A stretch of DNA of 64,000 bases from a virus. Position numbers and translations under genes: made by a program. The DNA lies in IMG/VR virus record IMGVR_UViG_3300045988_130116; one strand, 5' to 3'. The first letter of the stretch is position 1. Every line of letters starts with the position of its first letter. The notes under the pieces were generated by a model, which saw only the letters and a program-made list of their open reading frames with translations, was not told the DNA's origin and did no database searches. Positions 25,785 through 58,322 of this stretch are shown here, piece by piece.

Positions 25785-27307
25785 TAAAATAATTGATAAG
25801 TATTGCATAAACCTTTGTTGCCTTTTATTTTGTCAACTATTATAAGTTTAGCGTCAATTAAGTTTGATAAAATTTTAGGTATATTATTTGTTTTTATTCC
25901 TGTTAGATAAGATATATCTTCAAGAGTAACGGTTGGATTATTTGCCATTAAATATCTTAAAGCGATAGCAACCTTCAAGTCATTATCTTTTATTAACTTT
26001 TGCATTTTAAACACGAATAAATTTGTATTTAAATGCACTATTTCTTTATTGTACTTTTCAAAATCAAAATTATAAGTATAAAGTTCTGTCGGTTTTTTAG
26101 AACCGTCTATTTGTTGTTTTGTACTATATACTATATTTTTTTCTTTTAGATTTTTTAAAACTTTAGATATAGTCGGTTTGCTTATTTTTAAGTATTCAGA
26201 TATATCTTCTTTAGTAAAAAATTTTGTATTACAAACCTTTAATAACGCCATCACAGTTAATTCTGTTCCAGTTAATATTTCTAACATAAGTTTTTTCTCC
26301 TTACCTTTTACTGTTTGATAATTTATTATATGTTTTTTTGTCAATCCCATTACTTTATTATCTAAAGATATATCTGGTAACACAAATATATCATCAGAAG
26401 TAATATTTTTATATTTACATTTTAAGCTACATAATTTTTGTCCTGTCTTTATACAACAAGGTTTTATAAAAGAAGGATTCTCATATATACTTTTAACAAC
26501 TTTTTTAATTTCATTCTTAGACAATCCTTCTTCGCAGTTACTATTAAACTCGTAAGCATACTGTAAAGCCTTGTGTTCGCTTAGGTTAGCGTATTTACAA
26601 ACACTAGATATAAACATCAATGATTCATTTCTAAACCCCTTAGAAGCTCCATGACGGACTATTTGATTAAAACAGAATAAGTCTTCTACATTATCAACCG
26701 TCATATCAGTATTATTCTTTTTAAGTTCTATTACCCTATGATTTTTTAAGGTTTTTAAATCATATCCTCTTATCGGATTTCCATTTGTAACAATGGAAGC
26801 ATATTTATTTACTTTAAAGTTTTTAGTAAAAGGAACTCTTATTATCTGAGTACTGCTACAAGCCTTTATATCGGCTTCAAATAGGCTTGTAATATGCCTA
26901 TTGACTTCTACTATATCCTTAATAGGGTAAGAACCTTCTAGCTTAAAATATAAGTGCCAACCTCTACCACTATTGACAACCATATGTGTGAATAATCCTA
27001 TCCTTTTACACATATAATATATTTCTGATATAGGTAAATCTTCTTCATCTATATCTACTACTATAACATTCCTATTTAATAAAAGCTCTGTTTTATAAGC
27101 CTCTGTAACAGTTGTTGCTAGTCCTATATAGCAACTATTGTGTTTATACTTTTCTATTAAAGCTAGTCCTTCCTCATATGTATTAAAAAATACTTGTTTA
27201 TTAAAATTGGTATTAGGATTATTAATCCAAAGATATCCTTTTTCAATATTATTATTTTCTAATGTTGGAAGAACAAATTTTAAATAAGTTAATATTTTCT
27301 TTTCCAT
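25781..27307 (-). CDS. AEP-type primase / replication initiator with C-terminal winged-helix domains
   Basis: 508 aa; VIVVDIDEED (DxD), NSGRGWHLYF, IIRVPFTKN; C-terminal MarR-like FTKEDISEYLKISKPTISKVLKNLKEKNIV. Confidence 0.7.
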   Translation of the reverse strand: MEKKILTYLKFVLPTLENNNIEKGYLWINNPNTNFNKQVFFNTYEEGLALIEKYKHNSCYIGLATTVTEAYKTELLLNRNVIVVDIDEEDLPISEIYYMCKRIGLFTHMVVNSGRGWHLYFKLEGSYPIKDIVEVNRHITSLFEADIKACSSTQIIRVPFTKNFKVNKYASIVTNGNPIRGYDLKTLKNHRVIELKKNNTDMTVDNVEDLFCFNQIVRHGASKGFRNESLMFISSVCKYANLSEHKALQYAYEFNSNCEEGLSKNEIKKVVKSIYENPSFIKPCCIKTGQKLCSLKCKYKNITSDDIFVLPDISLDNKVMGLTKKHIINYQTVKGKEKKLMLEILTGTELTVMALLKVCNTKFFTKEDISEYLKISKPTISKVLKNLKEKNIVYSTKQQIDGSKKPTELYTYNFDFEKYNKEIVHLNTNLFVFKMQKLIKDNDLKVAIALRYLMANNPTVTLEDISYLTGIKTNNIPKILSNLIDAKLIIVDKIKGNKGLCNTYQLFY

Positions 27308-42564: not shown

Positions 42565-42627
42565 ATAATTTTACCTCCTAATTGTTTTATAGTTAGGGAA
42601 TTTATAAAGGTATTCCCTAAAAACCTA
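42562..42627 (-). promoter_or_regulatory. duplicated 5' region with hairpin, copy 2 (upstream of 41926..42564)
   Basis: About 90 percent identical to copy 1 by eye; stem at 42593..42620. Confidence 0.6.
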
Positions 42628-42647
42628 ATTTTAAAAATATTGTCAAC

Positions 42648-42824
42648 TTATAAATAATAAATTTCATTTAAAGTGTCTATTATATAAGATACATTTAATC
42701 CACTTTGAACGCCTACAAAGTCCGTAATATCCATTAATTTTAAACTAATAGGATTTTTAAAAGTTACTATTAAAGCTACTATTATGCAAATTGTTTTTAC
42801 TATTCTATTTATTTTTTTATTCAT
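42648..42824 (-). CDS. small membrane/secreted protein (58 aa)
   Basis: Own translation MNKKINRIVKTICIIVALIVTFKNPISLKLMDITDFVGVQSGLNVSYIIDTLNEIYYL; GGGAGGG SD. Confidence 0.5.
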   Translation of the reverse strand: MNKKINRIVKTICIIVALIVTFKNPISLKLMDITDFVGVQSGLNVSYIIDTLNEIYYL

Positions 42825-42840
42825 ATAAAGCCCTCCCTTT

Positions 42841-43197
42841 TTATTTTACTTTGCAAAAATCGTAAATTTTTTCTTGTCTTGTTCTATAATAGCAAGTTAA
42901 AATATTGCCACCAGTTAAACTTAAAACTACCATCAAAGTGGCTTGTTTACCTTCTATTATATCGTCTTTACGGTTACCGATGGTTAATACCTCCTCCATC
43001 GTACCCTTCTTTTTTTTGTTTTCCCTTATTTCATATAATAGGATTTTTCCATTTTGGGCTACGCTTCTAATGTATTCTTTATCTATAAAAACTGTATTTC
43101 TTTTTAATGCATGATAGGAAACATAAAAGCTTTTTTTTCTAGCGTTATCAAGTTTTATTTTATCTTTTTTATTTAAGTCTTTATATCTATACTTCAT
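42841..43197 (-). CDS. hypothetical protein
   Basis: 118-aa ORF; GGAGGGG SD. Confidence 0.55.
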   Translation of the reverse strand: MKYRYKDLNKKDKIKLDNARKKSFYVSYHALKRNTVFIDKEYIRSVAQNGKILLYEIRENKKKKGTMEEVLTIGNRKDDIIEGKQATLMVVLSLTGGNILTCYYRTRQEKIYDFCKVK

Positions 43198-52519: not shown

Positions 52520-53722
52520 TTGTTAGCAAATTACACGTTTAAAGGGAAGATAGATGGCAAGTCTATTAAAGACTATCAAAACAAAATAGATTTAAGTGTT
52601 AAAACAAGCCAAGAGATAATCGACCAAGTGAATAAAATTTTAAATATAGAAGAGATTAATGGGGTTCAGTTTAATGGTGATTTATTTTGGCAAGTTATTT
52701 GGGACGAAGGAGTTTGTAAAGCAGATATAAATACAAACGAATTATGTTGGAGCAATACAGAAGTATGCAAAACACTAGAGATATTAGCATCGTACATACT
52801 TATGAAAGACGATAAAGAAAAAAGAAAAGAATGTAAAATGTATGATGATTACAAATTAACAAAAAGAGCAGAAAAAGATAGGGAAAAGGTTTGTCAGATT
52901 GGAGTTAACGAAGATGATGAGGTTGTAGTTCTTAAAGATGTAAAAAATTATAAAAAATACAAGAAAACTACTGTTAATAAATCTGACATTAAAGAATATT
53001 CCGAACTTAAATGTTATGATGACTACAAGGAATATATGAAAACCTTATTCCATGGTGAAAATGCCAAAGAGAATAGACTTGAGCTGATAGAAAGACTAAA
53101 GAATAAGGGTTATGACATTTCTAATGGTAAACTTTATAAATTTGTTAAAACCACACTTCCAAGTATATCAGAAGATATGTTAAGTGTTAAATTAAGTAAA
53201 ACACAACCAATTAAATGGAAACAACCACTTAGAGACAGTCATCAATCATTTAATTTTGAAATGTTGGATATGTTTGACCCTCAACAAGTTAAATATGCTT
53301 TAGTAACTGATAAAAATTTAGAATTTTCTACTAGAAATGAGTTTTGTATAACTCTTGACGAAATTATTAAAAAAACACACCTTACTAAAAATCAAAAGAT
53401 AATATTAAACAAGTGGAGAAAAGATTGGCAAGTAGTTAAAATAGCAGAATATATGCAAGTAGATGTTGCTTATGTATCTAGGGAAATTGACACAATAGCT
53501 AAAAAAATAAGTAATGCCTACATAGACGAATATGAAGAACAATATTATTATATGAATTTAGTTAAGGGAACTTATAAGAAATGCTCTTGCTGTGGAGAGA
53601 ATAAGTTGGTAAAGCATTTTAATAAACATTCTGTAAAGAATGGAGAAATAATATATATGAGTATTTGCTCGGATTGTAGAAAAAAACACCGAGAAAAAAA
53701 AGAAAGGAAGAGGAAAAGATGA
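52520..53722 (+). CDS. hypothetical protein with sigma-region-4-like HTH and C-terminal zinc ribbon (possible late regulator)
   Basis: 400 aa, TTG start; LTKNQKIILNKWRKDWQVVKIAEYMQVDVAYVSREIDTIAKKI; CSCCGE...CSDCRKK. Confidence 0.55.
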   Translation: MLANYTFKGKIDGKSIKDYQNKIDLSVKTSQEIIDQVNKILNIEEINGVQFNGDLFWQVIWDEGVCKADINTNELCWSNTEVCKTLEILASYILMKDDKEKRKECKMYDDYKLTKRAEKDREKVCQIGVNEDDEVVVLKDVKNYKKYKKTTVNKSDIKEYSELKCYDDYKEYMKTLFHGENAKENRLELIERLKNKGYDISNGKLYKFVKTTLPSISEDMLSVKLSKTQPIKWKQPLRDSHQSFNFEMLDMFDPQQVKYALVTDKNLEFSTRNEFCITLDEIIKKTHLTKNQKIILNKWRKDWQVVKIAEYMQVDVAYVSREIDTIAKKISNAYIDEYEEQYYYMNLVKGTYKKCSCCGENKLVKHFNKHSVKNGEIIYMSICSDCRKKHREKKERKRKR

Positions 53723-54006
53723 AAAAGAAAGATTTAATAAAAAGAGTAGCAGATAAATGTGATTATTCTCAAAGACAAGTAGAAGAAATGTATGACGTTC
53801 TTAAAGATGTTGTAGAGGACGCTATAGCAGATGGTGAAGAATTTAAATTATTAGGCTTTATAAAAATAGGAACTAAAAAATTAAGTCCTAGAAAAGGTAA
53901 AATGACTAATAGATTTGGTGAAGTTGTAGAATGGGAAAGAACAGAAGAAATTACTGTTCCAACTGTAGGATTAACTAAATATATAACTAAACGTTTTAAA
54001 GAGTAA
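53719..54006 (+). CDS. HU/IHF-family DNA-binding protein
   Basis: 95 aa; MKKKDLIKRVADK...QVEEMYDVLKDVVEDAIADGEEFKLLGFIKIGTKK..PRKGK. Confidence 0.75.
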   Translation: MKKKDLIKRVADKCDYSQRQVEEMYDVLKDVVEDAIADGEEFKLLGFIKIGTKKLSPRKGKMTNRFGEVVEWERTEEITVPTVGLTKYITKRFKE

Positions 54007-54224
54007 TATAGAACTTTAAAAAATGGATAATATGAGCTTATAGACACACACAGCTAATTTTACATATAACAAGCTACTTTTGGTAAGAGTTAAGTTACTT
54101 GTGTCTAGTAATTTTTCATATTATCCTCCAATTTTATTATACTTAGGCGATTACCGCAATTATTTTATAAAGGAAATTAAAAACAAATTTTTATAACTAG
54201 ATTAATACATCGCCTAGCGAATAT

Positions 54225-54291
54225 GGATATATAGTTTAACAGGCAAAATACTTACCGGAAAAGAGTTATAGGTTCGAGTCCTATTATATCC
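54225..54291 (+). ncRNA. tRNA-like element 1 (non-canonical; anticodon arm cannot be folded canonically)
   Basis: Hand fold: 7-bp acceptor GGATATA/TATATCC, T arm ATAGG-TTCGAGT-CCTAT, D arm GTTT-AACAGGCA-AAAT. Only 67 nt, and the central 34 nt is too short for a standard anticodon arm plus variable loop. Confidence 0.5.
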
Positions 54292-54489
54292 TCATGATAT
54301 AACCCCCTTTCAATTATATTATTATACTTAAAGACACATACAGCAATTTTTAAATACTTTATTTTATAAAAAACAATTTATATTAACTTAAATAGAATTT
54401 CATAAATACCTCCTTTGATTTAATGATATGTAAGAATGTGTCTTGTAATACCTCCTATAGGACTACTGAACGGGAAGTAGTCCTAATAT

Positions 54490-54558
54490 GACAAGGTGGA
54501 GTAATGGAAACTCGTTAGATTAATTCTAAAGATGTAGGTTCAAATCCTTCCCTTGTGA
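54490..54558 (+). ncRNA. tRNA-like element 2 (non-canonical; 15-nt anticodon arm)
   Basis: Hand fold: acceptor (G)ACAAGG/CCTTGT(G) with a 1:72 G-G mismatch, D arm GAGT-AATGGAA-ACTC, T arm GTAGG-TTCAAAT-CCTTC. The anticodon arm TTAG(A)-TTAAT-(T)CTAA is 2 nt short, and the loop contains UUAA. Confidence 0.5.
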
Positions 54559-54606
54559 ATATTTAACATTTTACCTTCTTTCTACCCCTCTTTTGAGGGG
54601 GCTTAT

Positions 54607-54681
54607 GCTGGTGTGGCTCAATGGCAGAGCAGCTGACTTGTAATCAGCAGGTTGTAGGTTCGACTCCTATCGCCAGCTCCA
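54607..54681 (+). tRNA. tRNA-Thr (anticodon UGU), CCA encoded
   Basis: Hand fold: acceptor GCTGGTG/CGCCAGC, D arm GCTC-AATGGCA-GAGC, anticodon arm GCTGA-CTTGTAA-TCAGC, T arm GTAGG-TTCGACT-CCTAT, then T-CCA. Confidence 0.9.
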
Positions 54682-54739
54682 AACAATTTATAAAAGATAT
54701 TAACAGCATAATTAAAATAGTATCTTGAGAGGTGATAAT

Positions 54740-56200
54740 ATGAATAAAACGTTACTTAAAGAATTAAAAAAGGCAACTAATTATACATATACAGAAAATG
54801 GTGGCTTAACACATAAAAGTACTTTAAATAAATGTTATGATTTATTTGCTTTTGGTGGAGCATCAAGAGGGAAAGGCGAAGAAGATATATTAGATATGTT
54901 TTATGATACTTTAAGAGAAGACAAACTGTTAGCGATGAAATTATTGTTTTACATTAGAGATGTAAGAGGTGGGTTAGGAGAGAGAAGAACTTTTAGAATT
55001 ATTCTTAAATCTTTAGCGAATTCTCATCCTTATTTAATTGAAAAAAATATAGATTTAATCCCCTTTTATGGTAGATATGATGATTTATTAGTATTATTCG
55101 ACACTAAATGTGAAGATAAGATGATTAACTTAATAGCTAAAACATTAATAGATGATTGCAGAACTAATCAGCCAACATTGTTAGCTAAATGGTTACCTAG
55201 TGAAAATGCCAGTTCTAGTGATTCTAGGAGACTTGCTAGAAAGTTAGCTAAAAAGCTTTCTCTTACTAATAGAGAGTATCGAAAGACATTATCTAGTATA
55301 AGAAATAAAATAAAAATTGTTGAAAATTTATTAAGCGAAAAAAAATATAATGAAATAGAATTTGATAAATTACCTAGTAAAGCAGGATTAAAATATAGAG
55401 ATGCTTTTTTAAGACATGAGGAATTATGTACTAGATATGTAGAGTTTATTGATAATAAAAATAGTAAAATAAATGCTAAAACTTTATATCCATATGACAT
55501 AATAAGAAATGTTTGGAATTGTGAGACTCATGAAAGAAAGGTGCTTGATAAATACTGGAAAAATTTGCCTGATTATTTTGATGGTAAACCTTGTAGTATA
55601 TTGCCAGTAATAGATAATTCGGGGTCAATGACTTGGAATTTAAATGGTGGCGTAATTCCAATAGATGTAGCAGTTTCTTTAGGAATATATTGTGCAGAGA
55701 GAAATCTTGGAGATTTCCATAATCACTATATTAGCTTTAGTAGAACTCCTAAATTAGTGGAAATAAAAGGCAACAATATAGTTGAGAAAACTTTAAGTGC
55801 AGTAAAAAATGTTCTTTATGAGAATACTAATATAGAAGCAGTGTTTGATTTAATATTAAAAACTTTAAAGAAAAGTGATTTATCAGAAGAATGCTTGCCT
55901 AAACACATTGTTATAATTTCTGATATGGAATTTGATGAAGGAACTAGATGTAACGATAGTGTAACATTAATGGAACGTATTAGAAAAGAATGGGCAAAAG
56001 AAGGATATACAATGCCAAACTTAGTTTATTGGAATGTGTGTTCTAGGAGAAACAATATATCAGATTTAGGAGCAGATAATATTACTTATGTAAGTGGTTG
56101 TACTCCAATGATATTTAAGAGCATTATGAGTGGTAAAAATGGTATGGATTTAATGTTAGATACATTAAATAGTGATAGATATTCAAGTATAAGAGTATAG
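54740..56200 (+). CDS. DUF2828-like helical domain plus vWA (MIDAS) protein; Ro60/TROVE-like architecture
   Basis: YTENGGLTHKSTLNKCYDLFAFGGA...LLFYIRDVRGGLGERRTFR (DUF2828 pattern); vWA MIDAS VIDNSGSM ... ISDMEFD; ATG 54740 after GAGAGGTGA. Confidence 0.65.
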   Translation: MNKTLLKELKKATNYTYTENGGLTHKSTLNKCYDLFAFGGASRGKGEEDILDMFYDTLREDKLLAMKLLFYIRDVRGGLGERRTFRIILKSLANSHPYLIEKNIDLIPFYGRYDDLLVLFDTKCEDKMINLIAKTLIDDCRTNQPTLLAKWLPSENASSSDSRRLARKLAKKLSLTNREYRKTLSSIRNKIKIVENLLSEKKYNEIEFDKLPSKAGLKYRDAFLRHEELCTRYVEFIDNKNSKINAKTLYPYDIIRNVWNCETHERKVLDKYWKNLPDYFDGKPCSILPVIDNSGSMTWNLNGGVIPIDVAVSLGIYCAERNLGDFHNHYISFSRTPKLVEIKGNNIVEKTLSAVKNVLYENTNIEAVFDLILKTLKKSDLSEECLPKHIVIISDMEFDEGTRCNDSVTLMERIRKEWAKEGYTMPNLVYWNVCSRRNNISDLGADNITYVSGCTPMIFKSIMSGKNGMDLMLDTLNSDRYSSIRV

Positions 56201-56214
56201 AGAGGAGATATAAT

Positions 56215-56490
56215 ATGAAAAAAGTGTTACAATTAGATTTTAAAAATGCAAGTATAGAGGAAGGTTCAAATGGAAAACAGGTTGTCGAATACGATAAAGA
56301 ATTGTTACCTTTGTATACAAGAAGTTTAGATAAAGTGTTGGAAGATATAGAAGAAGAACAAGAGTTGCAACTTAAATTAAATATAAAACTTCCTCTTTCT
56401 CAATTTAGATTGCTCACTGATTTCCTAGTAGATTGTTCAGATTTAAACTTATTCGATTTGCAAATAAAATCAGTAGAACAAGATGACTAA
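56215..56490 (+). CDS. hypothetical acidic protein
   Basis: 91-aa ORF; GAGAGGAG SD. Confidence 0.55.
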   Translation: MKKVLQLDFKNASIEEGSNGKQVVEYDKELLPLYTRSLDKVLEDIEEEQELQLKLNIKLPLSQFRLLTDFLVDCSDLNLFDLQIKSVEQDD

Positions 56491-57646
56491 TATGGAAAAG
56501 TATAATACGAAACAAAAAGAACAGATGATTAAATTGTCCCTACAAAAATTAAGTGGGGACGATGAAGTAGATTGGGAAGATATAATAGATAGTCTAGGAA
56601 TAAGTTTACATAAAGATACTTTAAGACGATGGGCAAGAGGAATGCAGATTTATGATGAATATCTTAAAGAAACAAAACGCAAGTCTGTAAGAGACGATTC
56701 AGAAAAAACAATAAAAAAAATATTAGAATTAAAACAACAAAGAATTTTATTATCTGATGAAAAGAGATATGTAAATGAGAGACTTAGAGAACTAACAAGA
56801 GTAGAAGATTTCTATAAGAAGCTAGAAGATAAAATATCAAGTAGCGACCCTGTTCAACTAAGAGAGATTGAGTTTAGTGATAAAACGAATGAAGCAGTAT
56901 TAATGTTATCTGATTGGCATTATGGAATAGAAGTTGACAACAAAGTTAATAAATTCAATTCAGAGATAGCAAATAGTAGAGTTTCTGAATTAGCGGGTAA
57001 AGTTATAAAACATTGTAAAATAAATGACGTGAGTAAATTAAATATATTTTGTTTAGGAGATTTAATATCTTCTGAAATTCACACTATTATTAAAATGGAA
57101 AATAGAGAAGATTTATCTACTCAAATATATGAAGTAAGTGAACTTCTTTCAAAATTTATAGAGACAGTATCGAAAGTTGTTCCGATAGAAGTTACATTTA
57201 CTTTTGGAAATCATGAGAGAACGGGATTAAAAGACTTATCTAAAGATAGCGATAATTTTACAATTCTTATAGAAAAATATGTTATGCTTCTTTTAAGGGA
57301 TAATGAGAATGTTATTATCAATAGTAGTGAAACAAATTCAGATATTATATATAAAAACATTATGGGAAATGACTTTGTTGGAGTTCATGGACATCAAGAA
57401 AAAAGAAAAGGTGTTGCTCCTGATTTAAGTGCAATCCTGAGTGGTAGAAATGTCGATTATGTATGCATGGGGCATTTACATTCTCAATGTAATTATATTG
57501 ATAATACATCAGAAGTTTTTATAAATGGAAGTTTATGTGGCACAGATGCCTATGCTTATGGGAAGAGATTGTTTTCTCCCCCTAGTCAAAAGTTATTGAT
57601 AGTTAATGACGAAGGTGTTGAATGTATCTACAATATTAAAGTTTAG
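56483..57646 (+). CDS. calcineurin-like metallophosphoesterase (Mre11/SbcD-type motifs)
   Basis: 387 aa; LSDWHYG, CLGDLIS, FGNHER, VHGHQ, CMGHLH. Confidence 0.75.
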   Translation: MTNMEKYNTKQKEQMIKLSLQKLSGDDEVDWEDIIDSLGISLHKDTLRRWARGMQIYDEYLKETKRKSVRDDSEKTIKKILELKQQRILLSDEKRYVNERLRELTRVEDFYKKLEDKISSSDPVQLREIEFSDKTNEAVLMLSDWHYGIEVDNKVNKFNSEIANSRVSELAGKVIKHCKINDVSKLNIFCLGDLISSEIHTIIKMENREDLSTQIYEVSELLSKFIETVSKVVPIEVTFTFGNHERTGLKDLSKDSDNFTILIEKYVMLLLRDNENVIINSSETNSDIIYKNIMGNDFVGVHGHQEKRKGVAPDLSAILSGRNVDYVCMGHLHSQCNYIDNTSEVFINGSLCGTDAYAYGKRLFSPPSQKLLIVNDEGVECIYNIKV

Positions 57647-57659
57647 TGAGGATTACGAT

Positions 57660-58322
57660 ATGGCAAATAAGAATGAAGAATTAAGTAGAGAAATATATAT
57701 AAGCGGTGAAATAAATAACGAAATGGCAGCAGAGATAATTGCTCATTTAAAAAAGATAAATGATGAAGATTTAGATGTTTATGAGAAAAATCAAACTTTA
57801 AATGAAAAAAATCAATTACCTTATAAGCCTATAAGTCTTACAATAAATTCTCCGGGAGGAAGTGTAATGGACGGGTGTGCGATAATGAACACTTTAGAAT
57901 CTTGTATTGCTCCTGTTCATACTCATGGTATAGGAGAAGTGTCTAGTATGGCAGTTCATATTTATGCTTGTGGAGAAGTTAGGACAGCAGGAGATTTAGT
58001 TACATTTGGGCTACATGGAACTGGTGGCGGTACTTGTGGTTATACTAAAGAAATGATAAGTTCATTGACTCATTGGAAGAAATTAGAGAAAAAGTTAAAT
58101 GATAGACTTTTAGAAGACACAAAATTAACACAAAAAGACTTAGATGCTTGTGAAACTTGTTTAACGTTTTATGATTATGACGAAGCCTTGGAAAAAGGTT
58201 TGATAAATACAGATTTGTATGATGATGAATTTCTTAAAGAAATAATAGACGGATTAAATGTGTCTGACAAAAAAGAAGAAACAAAAGTGATAAAAACAGA
58301 AACAGAGGTAAAAGAAGATTAA
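57660..58322 (+). CDS. ClpP-family serine protease (candidate prohead maturation protease)
   Basis: YISGEINNEMA...LTINSPGGSVMDGCAIMNTL...GEVSSMAVHIYACG; ATG 57660 after GAGGA (track start 57606). Confidence 0.8.
   Translation: MANKNEELSREIYISGEINNEMAAEIIAHLKKINDEDLDVYEKNQTLNEKNQLPYKPISLTINSPGGSVMDGCAIMNTLESCIAPVHTHGIGEVSSMAVHIYACGEVRTAGDLVTFGLHGTGGGTCGYTKEMISSLTHWKKLEKKLNDRLLEDTKLTQKDLDACETCLTFYDYDEALEKGLINTDLYDDEFLKEIIDGLNVSDKKEETKVIKTETEVKED

What the first reader, a model, noticed from the sequence alone, without database searches (positions are those of the whole stretch)
54040..56200. Two non-canonical tRNA-like elements immediately upstream of a Ro60-like (helical domain plus vWA) gene: candidate phage Y-RNA/Ro-type RNP
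The 720-nt spacer after the HU gene holds one textbook tRNA-Thr(UGU) and two elements at 54225..54291 and 54490..54558.

The two elements have good acceptor stems, D arms and T arms with TTCGA/TTCAA loops. They are only 67 and 69 nt long, and their anticodon regions cannot form a standard 5-bp stem with a 7-nt loop. Each is preceded by a stable hairpin:
- an 8-bp stem, 54143..54150 / 54209..54216
- a 10-bp stem, 54457..54486

Longer inverted repeats carrying AGACACA(C/T)ACAGC lie further upstream.

The next gene encodes a DUF2828-type helical domain plus a vWA domain with a DNSGS MIDAS motif. That is the same domain logic as Ro60/Rsr (TROVE plus vWA). Bacterial and some phage Ro orthologs are encoded next to Y RNAs whose effector module mimics a tRNA (Wolin-lab work on YrlA).

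The arrangement here fits that paradigm. If true, it would extend the paradigm to a DUF2828-type protein in a clostridial-type phage.
Basis: inference. Interest (0 to 1): 0.75.

Follow-up and report, generated by a model that had tools for sequence, protein, structure and literature searches.

The report
Phage Ro60-like gene and companion RNAs
A phage gene for a ring-shaped Ro60-like RNA-binding protein sits behind a short array of tRNA look-alikes and conserved RNA hairpins, and the same hairpin signature lies beside this gene family in very different phages, which points to a previously unrecognised set of partner (Y-type) RNAs.

Summary
The 733-nt spacer contains one canonical tRNA-Thr(UGU) and two tRNA-like elements with shortened anticodon arms. 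e1 is 54225-54292 (3 bp stem, 7-nt loop). e2 is 54490-54558 (5 bp stem, 5-nt loop).

The gene at 54740-56200 (Pfam DUF2828+DUF7788) is predicted to fold as Ro60; the 13 best PDB matches are all Ro60 chains.

e1 is a conserved tRNA mimic. It heads the array in every relative down to 61% protein identity. Its acceptor, D and T stems covary, while its anticodon arm shrinks or disappears. e2 looks like a recently degraded tRNA(CAU) copy.

Each is a 7-9 bp stem followed by ACAGCAA, with a G after the 3' arm. These "clamp" modules lie on the gene strand beside DUF2828 genes in phages of Bacillus, Staphylococcus, Listeria, Enterococcus, Mycobacterium, Citrobacter and Campylobacter. Long versions enclose a permuted tRNA-like domain and give sub-threshold Rfam YrlA hits.

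The Ro-like/Y-RNA idea for this family has already been proposed in the literature. The clamp motif was not found in Rfam or in the papers I read. Binding is untested.

The parts
53719..54006 (+). HU-type DNA-binding protein gene, the upstream boundary of the spacer
   Evidence: Pfam Bac_DNA_binding, E 1.5e-12. The same HU -> spacer -> DUF2828 order is seen in L101, L104 and L105.
54025..54126 (+). Clamp module M1 with an outer extension. Inner stem TAGACACA 54041-54048 / TGTGTCTA 54100-54107. Core ACAGCTA 54050-54056. G at 54108. Outer 11-bp stem 54025-54035 / 54116-54126.
   Evidence: I7; MFE -26.5 kcal/mol, z -4.7. Conserved in relatives.
54117..54129 (+). Invariant CATATTATCCTCC. It is antisense to the gene's own ribosome-binding site and start codon (GATAATATGA 54734-54743). 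Inside M1 it pairs with a copy of that sequence at 54025-54035.
   Evidence: I2, I7, D9. Invariant in L101, L102, L104 and L105. Its function is inferred only.
54143..54217 (+). Clamp module M2. Stem TTAGGCGAT / ATCGCCTAG, core ACCGCAA, AT-rich loop. It ends 8 nt before e1.
   Evidence: z -3.4. The junction CGCCTAG-N2-3-AAYRTG-acceptor is conserved in L101, L102 and L104.
54225..54292 (+). e1: a 68-nt tRNA-like element with acceptor, D and T arms and a 3-bp/7-nt anticodon arm. No encoded CCA.
   Evidence: Rfam tRNA 49.0 bits. Not called by ARAGORN. Covariation on A6: 97.6% of cells paired, 9 pairs with changes on both sides, 0 of 500 shuffles as good.
54331..54445 (+). Clamp module M3. Stem AAGACACAT / ATGTGTCTT, core ACAGCAA 54340-54346, G at 54445. 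The 96-nt AT-rich loop holds two AATACCTCCT copies counting the one just 3' of the stem.
   Evidence: (I13, D10).
54458..54485 (+). 10-bp leader hairpin, 4 nt upstream of e2
   Evidence: (I11). L007 keeps the hairpin through compensatory changes, TAGAGCTAC/GTAGCTCTA.
54490..54558 (+). e2: a 69-nt tRNA-like element with a 5-bp/5-nt anticodon arm. It is derived from a tRNA(CAU)-type gene.
   Evidence: Rfam tRNA 49.1 bits. ARAGORN calls Leu(UAA) at 54489-54559. It aligns to tRNA-Met(CAT) of L007 at the same position.
54585..54600 (+). CCCCTC-TTTT-GAGGGG hairpin between e2 and tRNA-Thr
   Evidence: Read from the sequence. Invariant in the spacer alignment. Not terminator-like by the scan.
54607..54681 (+). 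Canonical tRNA-Thr(UGU) with encoded CCA
   Evidence: ARAGORN. Rfam 70.6 bits. In L002, L003 and L006 this slot holds tRNA-Ser(GCU) instead.
54740..56200 (+). Ro60-fold protein, 486 aa: DUF2828 helical ring plus DUF7788 vWA domain with a DxSxS MIDAS motif. PHROG 850, 'RNA-binding protein'.

Best explanation
The spacer and the gene together encode a phage Ro60-type ribonucleoprotein system.

The protein (54740-56200) is a Ro60-fold ring with a vWA/MIDAS domain.

Its likely RNA partners are the three clamp modules M1-M3. Each has a 7-9 bp closing stem, the single-stranded motif ACAGCAA (ACAGCTA or ACCGCAA in two copies) 0-3 nt after the 5' arm, and a G after the 3' arm. This stem plus asymmetric conserved loop plays the role of the Ro-binding helix of Y RNAs. 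The variable loop is the effector part. In many relatives that loop is a permuted tRNA-like domain (T arm, then a closed acceptor-like hairpin, then a D arm), as in bacterial YrlA.

In this phage lineage the loops are plain, and a free-standing tRNA mimic, e1, sits 8 nt after M2. It keeps the acceptor, D and T arms (the tRNA elbow) but has a decoding-incompetent anticodon arm. e2 is a recently degraded tRNA(CAU) copy in the same array. The real tRNA-Thr is an exchangeable cassette.

Shown here: the predicted fold, the structures, their conservation and covariation, and their co-location and co-orientation with the gene family. Inferred only: that the protein binds the clamps, that e1 acts as the tRNA-like effector, and that the RNP acts on tRNA/RNA surveillance or counter-defence.
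For: Fold:
- AF2 model, pLDDT 89.6, pTM 0.89.
- The Foldseek PDB top 13 hits are all Ro60 chains (1yvr, 2i91, 9kop, 9l5y, 9nen, 2nvo and others), full length, E 6e-9 to 1e-6, TM 0.41-0.63. The next hits are vWA domains only.

Clamp motif:
- 58 of 73 non-redundant regex instances have a perfect 7-nt complement downstream, against 1 of 73 in an upstream control.
- Among 144 non-redundant modules, four stem positions covary, and the G after the 3' arm is 99% conserved although it was not used in the search.

Link to the gene:
- In 72 IMG/VR DUF2828 loci there are 101 modules on the gene strand against 5 on the opposite strand. 100 of the 101 lie upstream of the gene.
- Modules lie beside the gene in 7 of the 8 GenBank phages fetched (none in KVP40): 6ec x3 just after the gene, LP-064 x3 just before it, Finnry x3 just after, F372 x2 just before, VRE9_2, Michonne and Izhevsk.
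- In the complete Finnry genome the three convincing modules follow the Ro-like gene at 42.5 kb. The main tRNA array at 63-66 kb has none.
- A blind IMG/VR scan used the 5' motif alone. Of 31 hits with a stem, 25 have a same-strand tRNA within 3 kb and 11 have a same-strand DUF2828 gene, often 100-200 nt away. Of 51 hits without a stem, the numbers are 7 and 2.

YrlA likeness:
- Long modules hold a T arm, a closed acceptor-like hairpin and a D arm.
- RNAalifold finds 15 of 18 pairs with compensatory changes.
- Rfam YrlA hits coincide with modules: L031 at 39.1 bits, E 6.5e-7; L037 and L069 at about 35 bits, E 8e-4.

e1:
- It is the first array element in the relatives checked: L007-L009, L101, L102, L104 and L105.
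- The anticodon arm is 3 bp + 7 nt, 5 bp + 4 nt, or absent (57 nt in L105).
- Covariation is significant, 0 of 500 shuffles.
- A similar armless element lies 115 nt upstream of the gene in Enterococcus phage VRE9_2, next to a clamp.

Literature:
- The Listeria homologue gives HHpred Rsr as top hit, is found in virions and lies 620 bp after the tRNAs (PMC12282133).
- Bas63 gp130 is Ro60-like and counters the Ppl defence system (bioRxiv 10.1101/2024.10.10.617714).
- A TROVE-type phage Ro60 binds upstream Yrl RNAs (PMC12135203).
Against: - No binding or expression data exist for this phage.
- The window's own clamps carry no tRNA-like domain and give no YrlA hit.
- The YrlA hits in relatives are far below Rfam's gathering score (35-39 bits against 69).
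- In most loci the clamps sit inside tRNA arrays, often 8-15 nt before a tRNA. A tRNA-transcript processing or stability role is therefore not excluded.
- KVP40 has the gene but no module within 5 kb. Only 46 of 72 IMG/VR loci score with the strict rule.
- Some clamp-bearing tRNA arrays show no DUF2828 gene in up to 12 kb of held sequence.
- e1 alone is thermodynamically unremarkable (z -0.04).
- There is no sequence-level TROVE signal.
- The module sets were gathered with rules derived from this window. The controls are strand and flank comparisons, not an independent motif finder.
Confidence: 0.55

Rival explanations
1. This is an ordinary phage tRNA array with decay products. e1 and e2 are tRNA pseudogenes. 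The clamp hairpins are leader, processing or stability elements of tRNA precursors, for example protection of 5' ends or guidance of RNase P or other nucleases. The Ro-like gene is merely a frequent neighbour within the phage's RNA/translation module.
For: - e2 differs from a relative's canonical tRNA-Met(CAU) by a 2-nt loop deletion and carries stem mismatches.
- tRNA content changes between near-identical phages.
- The clamp 3' arms usually end 8-15 nt before a tRNA 5' end.
- 59 of 77 IMG/VR loci have same-strand tRNAs upstream of the gene.
- Some clamp-bearing arrays show no DUF2828 gene in the held flank.
Against: - e1 is kept, with compensatory changes, down to 61% protein identity while the neighbouring tRNAs turn over.
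- In Finnry and 6ec the clamps adjoin the Ro-like gene, not the tRNAs. Finnry's main tRNA array has none.
- The invariant ACAGCAA and the enclosed permuted tRNA-like domains are not expected of simple leaders.
Confidence: 0.25
2. The clamps are DNA-level cassette boundaries, comparable to integron attC sites or the PeSL elements of T4-type phages. They would promote exchange of tRNA gene cassettes, and their stems would be selected as single-stranded DNA hairpins.
For: - Lengths (about 60-140 nt), conserved ends with a free interior, fixed orientation and covarying stems resemble attC sites (own knowledge).
- Thr and Ser tRNAs replace one another at one slot in phages with 92-99% identical proteins.
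Against: - No integrase or recombinase is consistently nearby.
- The interiors of long modules are themselves conserved RNA-type structures (T arm, closed acceptor, D arm) that match YrlA.
- Tandem clamps without intervening genes follow the Ro-like gene in 6ec and Finnry.
Confidence: 0.08
3. e1 and e2 are working decoders: e2 as tRNA-Leu(UAA), as ARAGORN reports, and e1 as an unusual tRNA(CGG) or a frameshift/suppressor tRNA.
For: - ARAGORN calls e2 Leu(UAA), or Leu(UAG) in L004.
- CGG is kept in e1's loop in the window clade and in L102.
Against: - The anticodon arms are 13 and 15 nt instead of 17.
- e2 lacks the long variable arm of bacterial tRNA-Leu and has G1.G72 and U.U mismatches.
- The e1 loop changes to TTTAGAA in L101, to a 4-nt loop in L104, and the whole arm is absent in L105.
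Confidence: 0.04

Closest known systems
Bacterial Rsr (Ro60) with YrlA Y RNAs (Salmonella, Mycobacterium smegmatis; Rfam RF02553; PMC4201824)
   Same: - A Ro60-fold protein is encoded within a few hundred bases, on the same strand, as structured RNAs.
- A terminal stem with a short conserved motif near the 5' side encloses, in relatives, a permuted tRNA-like domain (T arm, closed acceptor-like hairpin, D arm).
- The YrlA model aligns end to end with whole modules.
   Different: - The protein is DUF2828+DUF7788 with no TROVE sequence signal.
- The conserved motif is ACAGCAA, not GNCGAAN0-1G.
- Scores are half the gathering threshold.
- There are several modules per locus, mostly interleaved with real tRNAs.
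- In this window the modules have no tRNA-like domain, and the tRNA mimic e1 is free-standing, in normal order, with an open acceptor stem.
Thermus phage phiLo phiRo60 with Yrl1/Yrl2 (PDB 9KOP, 9L5Y; PMC12135203)
   Same: - A phage-encoded Ro60 with two candidate Y RNAs directly upstream of the gene.
- It is among the best structural matches of the model.
   Different: - phiLo Ro60 was identified as a Ro60 homolog by a UniProt search, and its Yrls carry the CGAA motif.
- Sequence identity to the window protein is about 14%.
- Binding has been shown for phiLo, not here.
DUF2828-type homologues already discussed: Listeria phage CKA15_055 (PMC12282133), Escherichia phage Bas63 gp130 (bioRxiv 10.1101/2024.10.10.617714), mycobacteriophage 'Ro-like RNA binding protein' such as LeBron gp53 (PMC13148394)
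   Same: - Same protein family: tblastn 32-38% identity over 95-99% of the length.
- Same position next to tRNA genes.
- The authors already suggest that neighbouring RNAs may be Y RNAs.
   Different: - Those papers point to annotated tRNAs or to unnamed abundant transcripts. None describes the ACAGCAA clamp or armless tRNA mimics.
- Assigning Bas63 gp130 to this family is my inference, from its described position and from the Felixounavirus homologues.
Canonical phage tRNA arrays
   Same: - Same strand and tandem layout.
- Cassette-like turnover between relatives.
- One true tRNA (Thr-UGU).
   Different: e1 and e2 fail the anticodon-arm geometry. e1 is conserved while the true tRNAs are not.

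Membership tests
Ro60 / TROVE proteins | Ring of HEAT-like helical repeats followed by a vWA domain with a MIDAS motif | tested here: met
   AF2 model. Foldseek top 13 hits are all Ro60 chains, full length. D292, S294, S296, T363 and D395 are invariant in 45 homologues.
Ro60 / TROVE proteins | Significant match to Pfam TROVE (PF05731) or to Ro60 sequences | tested here: not met
   Pfam gives only DUF2828, DUF7788 and a weak VWA_2, even at E<=10. phmmer and hmmsearch against PDB sequences give no Ro60 hit. Others report an HHpred hit for the Listeria homologue (PMC12282133). Profile-profile comparison was not run here.
Ro60 / TROVE proteins | Binds Y RNA or misfolded RNA | not testable with these tools
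YrlA (Rfam RF02553) | Score at or above the gathering threshold (69 bits) | tested here: not met
   Window: no hit at E<=10. Relatives: 35-39 bits.
YrlA (Rfam RF02553) | Terminal stem enclosing a permuted tRNA-like domain (T arm, closed acceptor-like hairpin, D arm) | tested here: not met
   Window modules M1-M3 have AT-rich loops without such arms, and e1/e2 have normal arm order. The feature is met in relatives' long modules.
YrlA (Rfam RF02553) | GNCGAAN0-1G motif near the 5' end | tested here: not met
   CGAA before e1 is not conserved in L101, L102 or L104. The conserved motif is ACAGCAA.
YrlA (Rfam RF02553) | Encoded within 4 kb of the Ro60 gene, on the same strand | tested here: met
   Everything lies within 720 nt upstream on the + strand.
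Decoding tRNA | Cloverleaf recognised by the tRNA covariance model | tested here: met
   49.0 and 49.1 bits against a gathering score of 29.
Decoding tRNA | 5-bp anticodon stem with a 7-nt loop | tested here: not met
   e1 has 3 bp + 7 nt. e2 has 5 bp + 5 nt. The arm is variable or absent in e1 homologues.
ACAGCAA clamp modules (defined here) | A stem of at least 7 bp, ACAGCAA-type core 0-3 nt after the 5' arm, G after the 3' arm, on the strand of a DUF2828 gene nearby | tested here: met
   M1, M2 and M3. The cores of M1 and M2 are one-base variants (ACAGCTA, ACCGCAA).

The most novel reading that the evidence does not exclude
The ACAGCAA clamp RNAs are a previously undescribed, phage-wide class of Y RNAs. 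They would be the cognate ligands of DUF2828-type Ro60 homologues in phages of Firmicutes, Actinobacteria, Enterobacteria and Campylobacter. Their loops would present tRNA parts: permuted tRNA-like domains, or anticodon-stem-loop look-alikes such as CUUUUAA (Lys), CUGUUAA (Asn) and CUGUAAA (Tyr). The RNP could then decoy, sense or help repair damage from host tRNA-targeting defences. e1-type armless tRNA mimics would be the lineage-specific effector domain.
Probability: 0.35. Interest if true: 0.82.

Novelty: new variant of a known kind. Interest (0 to 1): 0.65.

Why it matters
Ro60-like genes of the DUF2828 type occur in hundreds of sequenced phages: 711 GenBank records and more than 7000 protein clusters. 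One member counters a bacterial defence system, one is packaged in virions, and one is toxic when overexpressed. What RNA they bind is unknown, and authors currently guess that "some tRNAs" are the partners.

A short, easily searchable RNA signature that follows the gene across phyla gives concrete candidates. These can be tested for binding, structure and genetics in cultured phages such as Izhevsk, 6ec, P100-type phages, LeBron/Finnry, Felixounaviruses and the Fletchervirus F372.

The signature also flags probable mis-annotated ORFs and "pseudo-tRNAs" in phage genomes. It further shows tRNA mimics that keep the elbow and acceptor while shedding the anticodon arm.

Tried and rejected
- Sequence searches of the protein and its profile against PDB sequences gave no Ro60 hit. 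The relationship is visible only by fold.
- megablast of 24 kb of the window against GenBank phages found nothing. The phage has no close cultured relative.
- The search for related loci with P0025 found nothing. The e1-junction pattern returned only the nine IMG/VR loci already held.
- The supplement of Chen et al. 2014 listing the 22 phages is not held. I could not check whether any DUF2828 phage was in that set.
- I considered whether the AGACAC motif is a sigma-70 -35 box. The spacing to any -10-like hexamer is inconsistent between copies, and the promoter scan is at background (6 found against 6.9 expected). Rejected as the main explanation.
- I considered a minus-strand mini-ORF behind the perfect GGAGGATAATATG. 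Its length and sequence are not conserved: 4, 7, 7, 19 and 25 codons, read by eye from the sequences. Rejected as a coding gene.
- I tried to equate the Listeria clamps with the most abundant CKA15 RNA. The published coordinates 26,236-26,727 map, in cka17, to a different 490-nt non-coding stretch between tRNA-Pro and tRNA-Met. That link is not established.
- MAFFT could not align the D arms of the long modules. No covariance model of the clamp was built.
Full report
**What is in the window**

The + strand reads, in order:
- a phage sigma factor gene (52520-53722, phrog_5767);
- an HU gene (53719-54006);
- a 733-nt non-coding spacer;
- a 486-aa gene (ATG at 54740, through 56200);
- a 91-aa ORF;
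- an exonuclease-type metallophosphatase;
- a ClpP-like protease;
- the large terminase;
- two DNA methylases.

Rfam's tRNA model matches three places in the spacer:
- 54225-54292 (e1), 49.0 bits;
- 54490-54558 (e2), 49.1 bits;
- 54607-54678 (tRNA-Thr UGU), 70.6 bits.

ARAGORN finds tRNA-Thr. It calls e2 Leu(UAA) and misses e1. The covariance-model alignments show the following:
- e1 has a normal acceptor stem, D arm and T arm, but its anticodon arm is only CTT/AAG around ACCGGAA.
- e2 has a 5-bp stem around a 5-nt loop.
- e2 also has a G1.G72 mismatch and a U.U pair in its T stem.

No Y_RNA or YrlA match appears in the spacer, even at E<=10.

**The protein**

Pfam assigns DUF2828 plus DUF7788. 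TROVE does not appear even at E<=10. PHROGs places the protein in phrog_850, 'RNA-binding protein'. Sequence and profile searches against PDB sequences find no Ro60.

I built an AlphaFold2 model from 45 homologues (pLDDT 89.6, pTM 0.89) and searched it against the PDB with Foldseek. The 13 best hits are all Ro60 chains, aligned over the full length:
- Xenopus 1yvr, 2i91 and 1yvp;
- human Ro60 9nen, 9nep, 9nf8 and 9nfa;
- Deinococcus Rsr 2nvo;
- Thermus phage phiLo 9kop and 9l5y.

Their E-values run from 6e-9 to 1e-6 and TM-scores from 0.41 to 0.63. Every later hit covers only the vWA domain. The MIDAS residues are invariant in the family. The Ro60 fold is therefore supported, but a TROVE relationship at the sequence level is not.

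The family is large: 711 GenBank phage records and more than 7000 protein clusters. Mycobacteriophage records already name it 'Ro-like RNA binding protein'.

**tRNA neighbourhood of the family**

All 8 diverse GenBank phages examined have same-strand tRNA genes within 3.5 kb of the gene, and mostly within a few hundred bases. They are Bacillus Izhevsk, Staphylococcus 6ec, Listeria LP-064, Mycobacterium Finnry, Citrobacter Michonne, Vibrio KVP40, Campylobacter F372 and Enterococcus VRE9_2.

Among 77 IMG/VR loci, 59 have same-strand tRNAs upstream within 5 kb. Only one tRNA in the whole set lies on the other strand.

Izhevsk shares the window's wider gene order: tRNAs, DUF2828, a small ORF, a metallophosphatase, then the terminase.

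**e1 is a conserved tRNA mimic**

Relatives that keep the HU -> spacer -> DUF2828 order span 61-99% protein identity. Their canonical tRNAs differ widely:
- Thr;
- Ser;
- Met/Trp/Tyr;
- Ile;
- Gln/Trp/Thr;
- thirteen tRNAs in one case.

In each relative checked (L007-L009, L101, L102, L104, L105), the first array element is an e1 homologue. Rfam detects it, but ARAGORN either misses it or calls it an oddity.

In the alignment, the acceptor, D and T stems change by compensation. 97.6% of cells are paired, 9 pairs show changes on both sides, and 0 of 500 shuffles reach this level; shifted controls reach 44-60% paired. The anticodon arm, in contrast, takes several forms:
- 3 bp + 7 nt, with differing loop sequences;
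- 5 bp + 4 nt;
- missing altogether (57 nt in L105).

A covariance model built from e1 finds similar short elements elsewhere. One is a 57-nt armless element 115 nt upstream of the DUF2828 gene of Enterococcus phage VRE9_2. Others are 65-nt elements in two more IMG/VR loci.

Selection therefore acts on the tRNA elbow and acceptor, not on decoding.

**e2 is probably a degraded tRNA**

At the same position, L007-L009 carry a canonical tRNA-Met(CAU) that aligns base for base with e2. The exception is two extra loop nucleotides in the tRNA-Met. e2 is known only from the subclade with at least 92% protein identity. There it shows one compensatory pair but also two stem mismatches. It lacks the long variable arm needed for a Leu identity.

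**The clamp modules**

- a 7-9 bp stem;
- the motif ACAGCAA 0-3 nt after the 5' arm;
- a loop of about 40-60 nt or about 100-110 nt;
- the complementary arm;
- then a G.

The window has three such modules: 54041-54107, 54143-54217 and 54331-54444. A rule-based scan of both strands of the whole 64 kb returns only these three, plus one AT-rich hit without the G.

In the related loci a strict regular expression matches 96 times, 95 of them on the gene strand. Of 73 non-redundant cases, 58 have a perfect 7-nt complement downstream, against 1 of 73 in an upstream control. Across 144 non-redundant modules the stem covaries at four positions, for example AGAC/GTCT against AGGC/GCCT. The G after the 3' arm is 99% conserved although it was not part of the search.

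**Link between clamps and the gene**

Modules lie beside the gene in seven GenBank phages:
- three in tandem right after the gene in Staphylococcus 6ec;
- three right before it in Listeria LP-064;
- three right after it in Mycobacterium Finnry;
- two right before it in Campylobacter F372;
- four each in Michonne, VRE9_2 and Izhevsk.

None was found in KVP40. Stem sequences differ freely between hosts. ACAGCAA and the trailing G persist.

In the complete Finnry genome, the three convincing modules sit at 42,571-42,857, directly after the Ro-like gene. The main tRNA array at 63-66 kb has none. Two further hits, in GC-rich coding sequence with loops of 135-147 nt, look like chance.

In 72 IMG/VR loci there are 101 modules on the gene strand against 5 on the opposite strand, and 100 of the 101 lie upstream of the gene.

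A blind scan of IMG/VR used AAGACACNNACAGCAA alone:

| Hits | Number | Same-strand tRNA within 3 kb | Same-strand DUF2828 gene |
|---|---|---|---|
| With complementary arm | 31 | 25 | 11, often 100-200 nt away |
| Without complementary arm | 51 | 7 | 2 |

**Long modules resemble YrlA**

Many long loops contain a small hairpin, a T arm, a closed acceptor-like hairpin, a D arm and sometimes an anticodon-like stem-loop. Others contain D, anticodon and T arms without an acceptor.

RNAalifold on 19 permuted modules recovers the clamp, the T arm and the closed hairpin. 15 of its 18 pairs show compensatory changes.

Rfam's YrlA model was the only non-tRNA-clan RNA family matched below E 1e-3 that falls on the modules:
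- L031 1749-1840, 39.1 bits, E 6.5e-7;
- L037 47-163, about 35 bits, E 8e-4;
- L069 3733-3849, about 35 bits, E 8e-4.

The L037 and L069 matches span whole modules end to end. These scores are well below the gathering score of 69. The modules are therefore YrlA-like in architecture but are not members by Rfam's criterion. The Finnry module at 42,632-42,760 is a clear example in a cultured phage.

**Interpretation**

The most economical reading is that DUF2828-type Ro60 homologues have their own Y-RNA class. The clamp would be the protein-binding module and the loop the effector. The window would then encode three minimal clamps, a free-standing tRNA mimic (e1) fused 8 nt behind clamp M2, a decaying tRNA (e2) and one exchangeable true tRNA.

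The steps that are shown are the predicted fold, the RNA structures, their conservation, and their co-location with the gene. The steps that are inferred are binding, the role of e1, and the biological purpose.

Published work bears on purpose:
- Bas63 gp130 counters the Ppl defence (bioRxiv 10.1101/2024.10.10.617714).
- The Listeria homologue is virion-associated (PMC12282133).
- LeBron gp53 is toxic on overexpression (PMC13148394).
- Phage phiLo Ro60 binds upstream Yrl RNAs and host PNPase (PMC12135203).

The main rival is that the clamps serve tRNA-precursor processing and that e1/e2 are pseudogenes. That reading fits the frequent position of clamps just before tRNAs. It does not explain Finnry and 6ec, the invariant ACAGCAA, or the long-term conservation of e1.

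**Novelty**

Calling this family Ro-like, and suspecting nearby RNAs as Y RNAs, is already in annotations and in two recent papers. The clamp motif, the YrlA-like modules beside DUF2828 genes and the armless tRNA mimics were not in Rfam 15. They were also absent from the papers I could read. I cannot exclude a description elsewhere.

Noticed in passing
window 54025-54035, 54116-54129 and 54731-54747: CATATTATCCTCC, invariant across the clade, is antisense to the Ro-like gene's own ribosome-binding site and start codon. Inside M1 it pairs with an upstream copy of that start region (GGATAATATGA). This may be a long-range translational switch that tRNA processing would relieve. On the minus strand the same bases form a perfect RBS+ATG, followed by a non-conserved 4-25 codon ORF.
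   Followed up: partly
window 54607-54681 compared with L002 2522-2610, L003 1097-1185 and L006 2855-2943: In phages whose Ro-like proteins are 92-99% identical, the slot just before the gene holds either tRNA-Thr(UGU) or tRNA-Ser(GCU), with identical flanks. L007-L009 hold Met/Trp/Tyr. tRNA genes behave as exchangeable cassettes.
   Followed up: partly
L038 3051-3120, L064 4169-4238, L025 369-438, L088 397-466, L030 3910-3979: A second class of odd 70-nt, low-GC tRNA. It has a conserved 9-nt anticodon loop, CTTGATACA, closed by covarying stems, and lies in tRNA arrays upstream of DUF2828 genes.
   Followed up: no
L037 2003-2100: A stretch inside a phage tRNA array matches bacterial 23S rRNA positions 1084-1153 (the L11/GTPase-associated centre) at 37.5 bits, E 9e-8. 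It may be an rRNA-fragment mimic.
   Followed up: no
L016 6535-6750 (Finnry gene 55) and LeBron gp54: The annotated hypothetical CDS right after the Ro-like gene of Finnry is almost wholly covered by clamp modules 2 and 3, including a YrlA-like one, so it is probably not a protein gene. The neighbour of LeBron's Ro-like gp53 (gp54) was reported as severely toxic on overexpression (PMC13148394). If it is the equivalent stretch, which I infer but did not check, the toxic agent could be the RNA.
   Followed up: no
L234 1980-2471 (Listeria phage cka17 26,236-26,727): The coordinates given for the most highly transcribed non-coding region of phage CKA15 map, in cka17, to a 490-nt stretch between tRNA-Pro and tRNA-Met. 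It has no clamp and no tRNA, so it is a separate, unexplained abundant RNA.
   Followed up: partly
L024 4754-4834, L072 3038-3115, L097 4738-4830, L035 94-174, L031 1007-1133: Clamp loops often carry 4-5 bp hairpins with 7-nt loops identical to anticodon loops: CTTTTAA (Lys-UUU), CTGTTAA (Asn-GUU) and CTGTAAA (Tyr-GUA). These are the tRNA species attacked by known anticodon nucleases.
   Followed up: no
window 52520-53722 and L101 1-374: A 400-aa phage sigma factor (phrog_5767) lies directly upstream of HU. It has no Pfam hit at E<=0.01. In L101 a further sigma-70-like gene lies divergently upstream.
   Followed up: no
L015 8846-12558 and Finnry 52,563-57,677: RNA-repair genes occur in phages that carry the Ro-like gene. 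In Listeria phage LP-064, RtcB-type ligase, RNA ligase and tRNA amidotransferase genes lie within 6 kb downstream of it. In Finnry, polynucleotide kinase and RNA ligase genes lie 10-15 kb downstream. None was seen next to the gene in this window.
   Followed up: no
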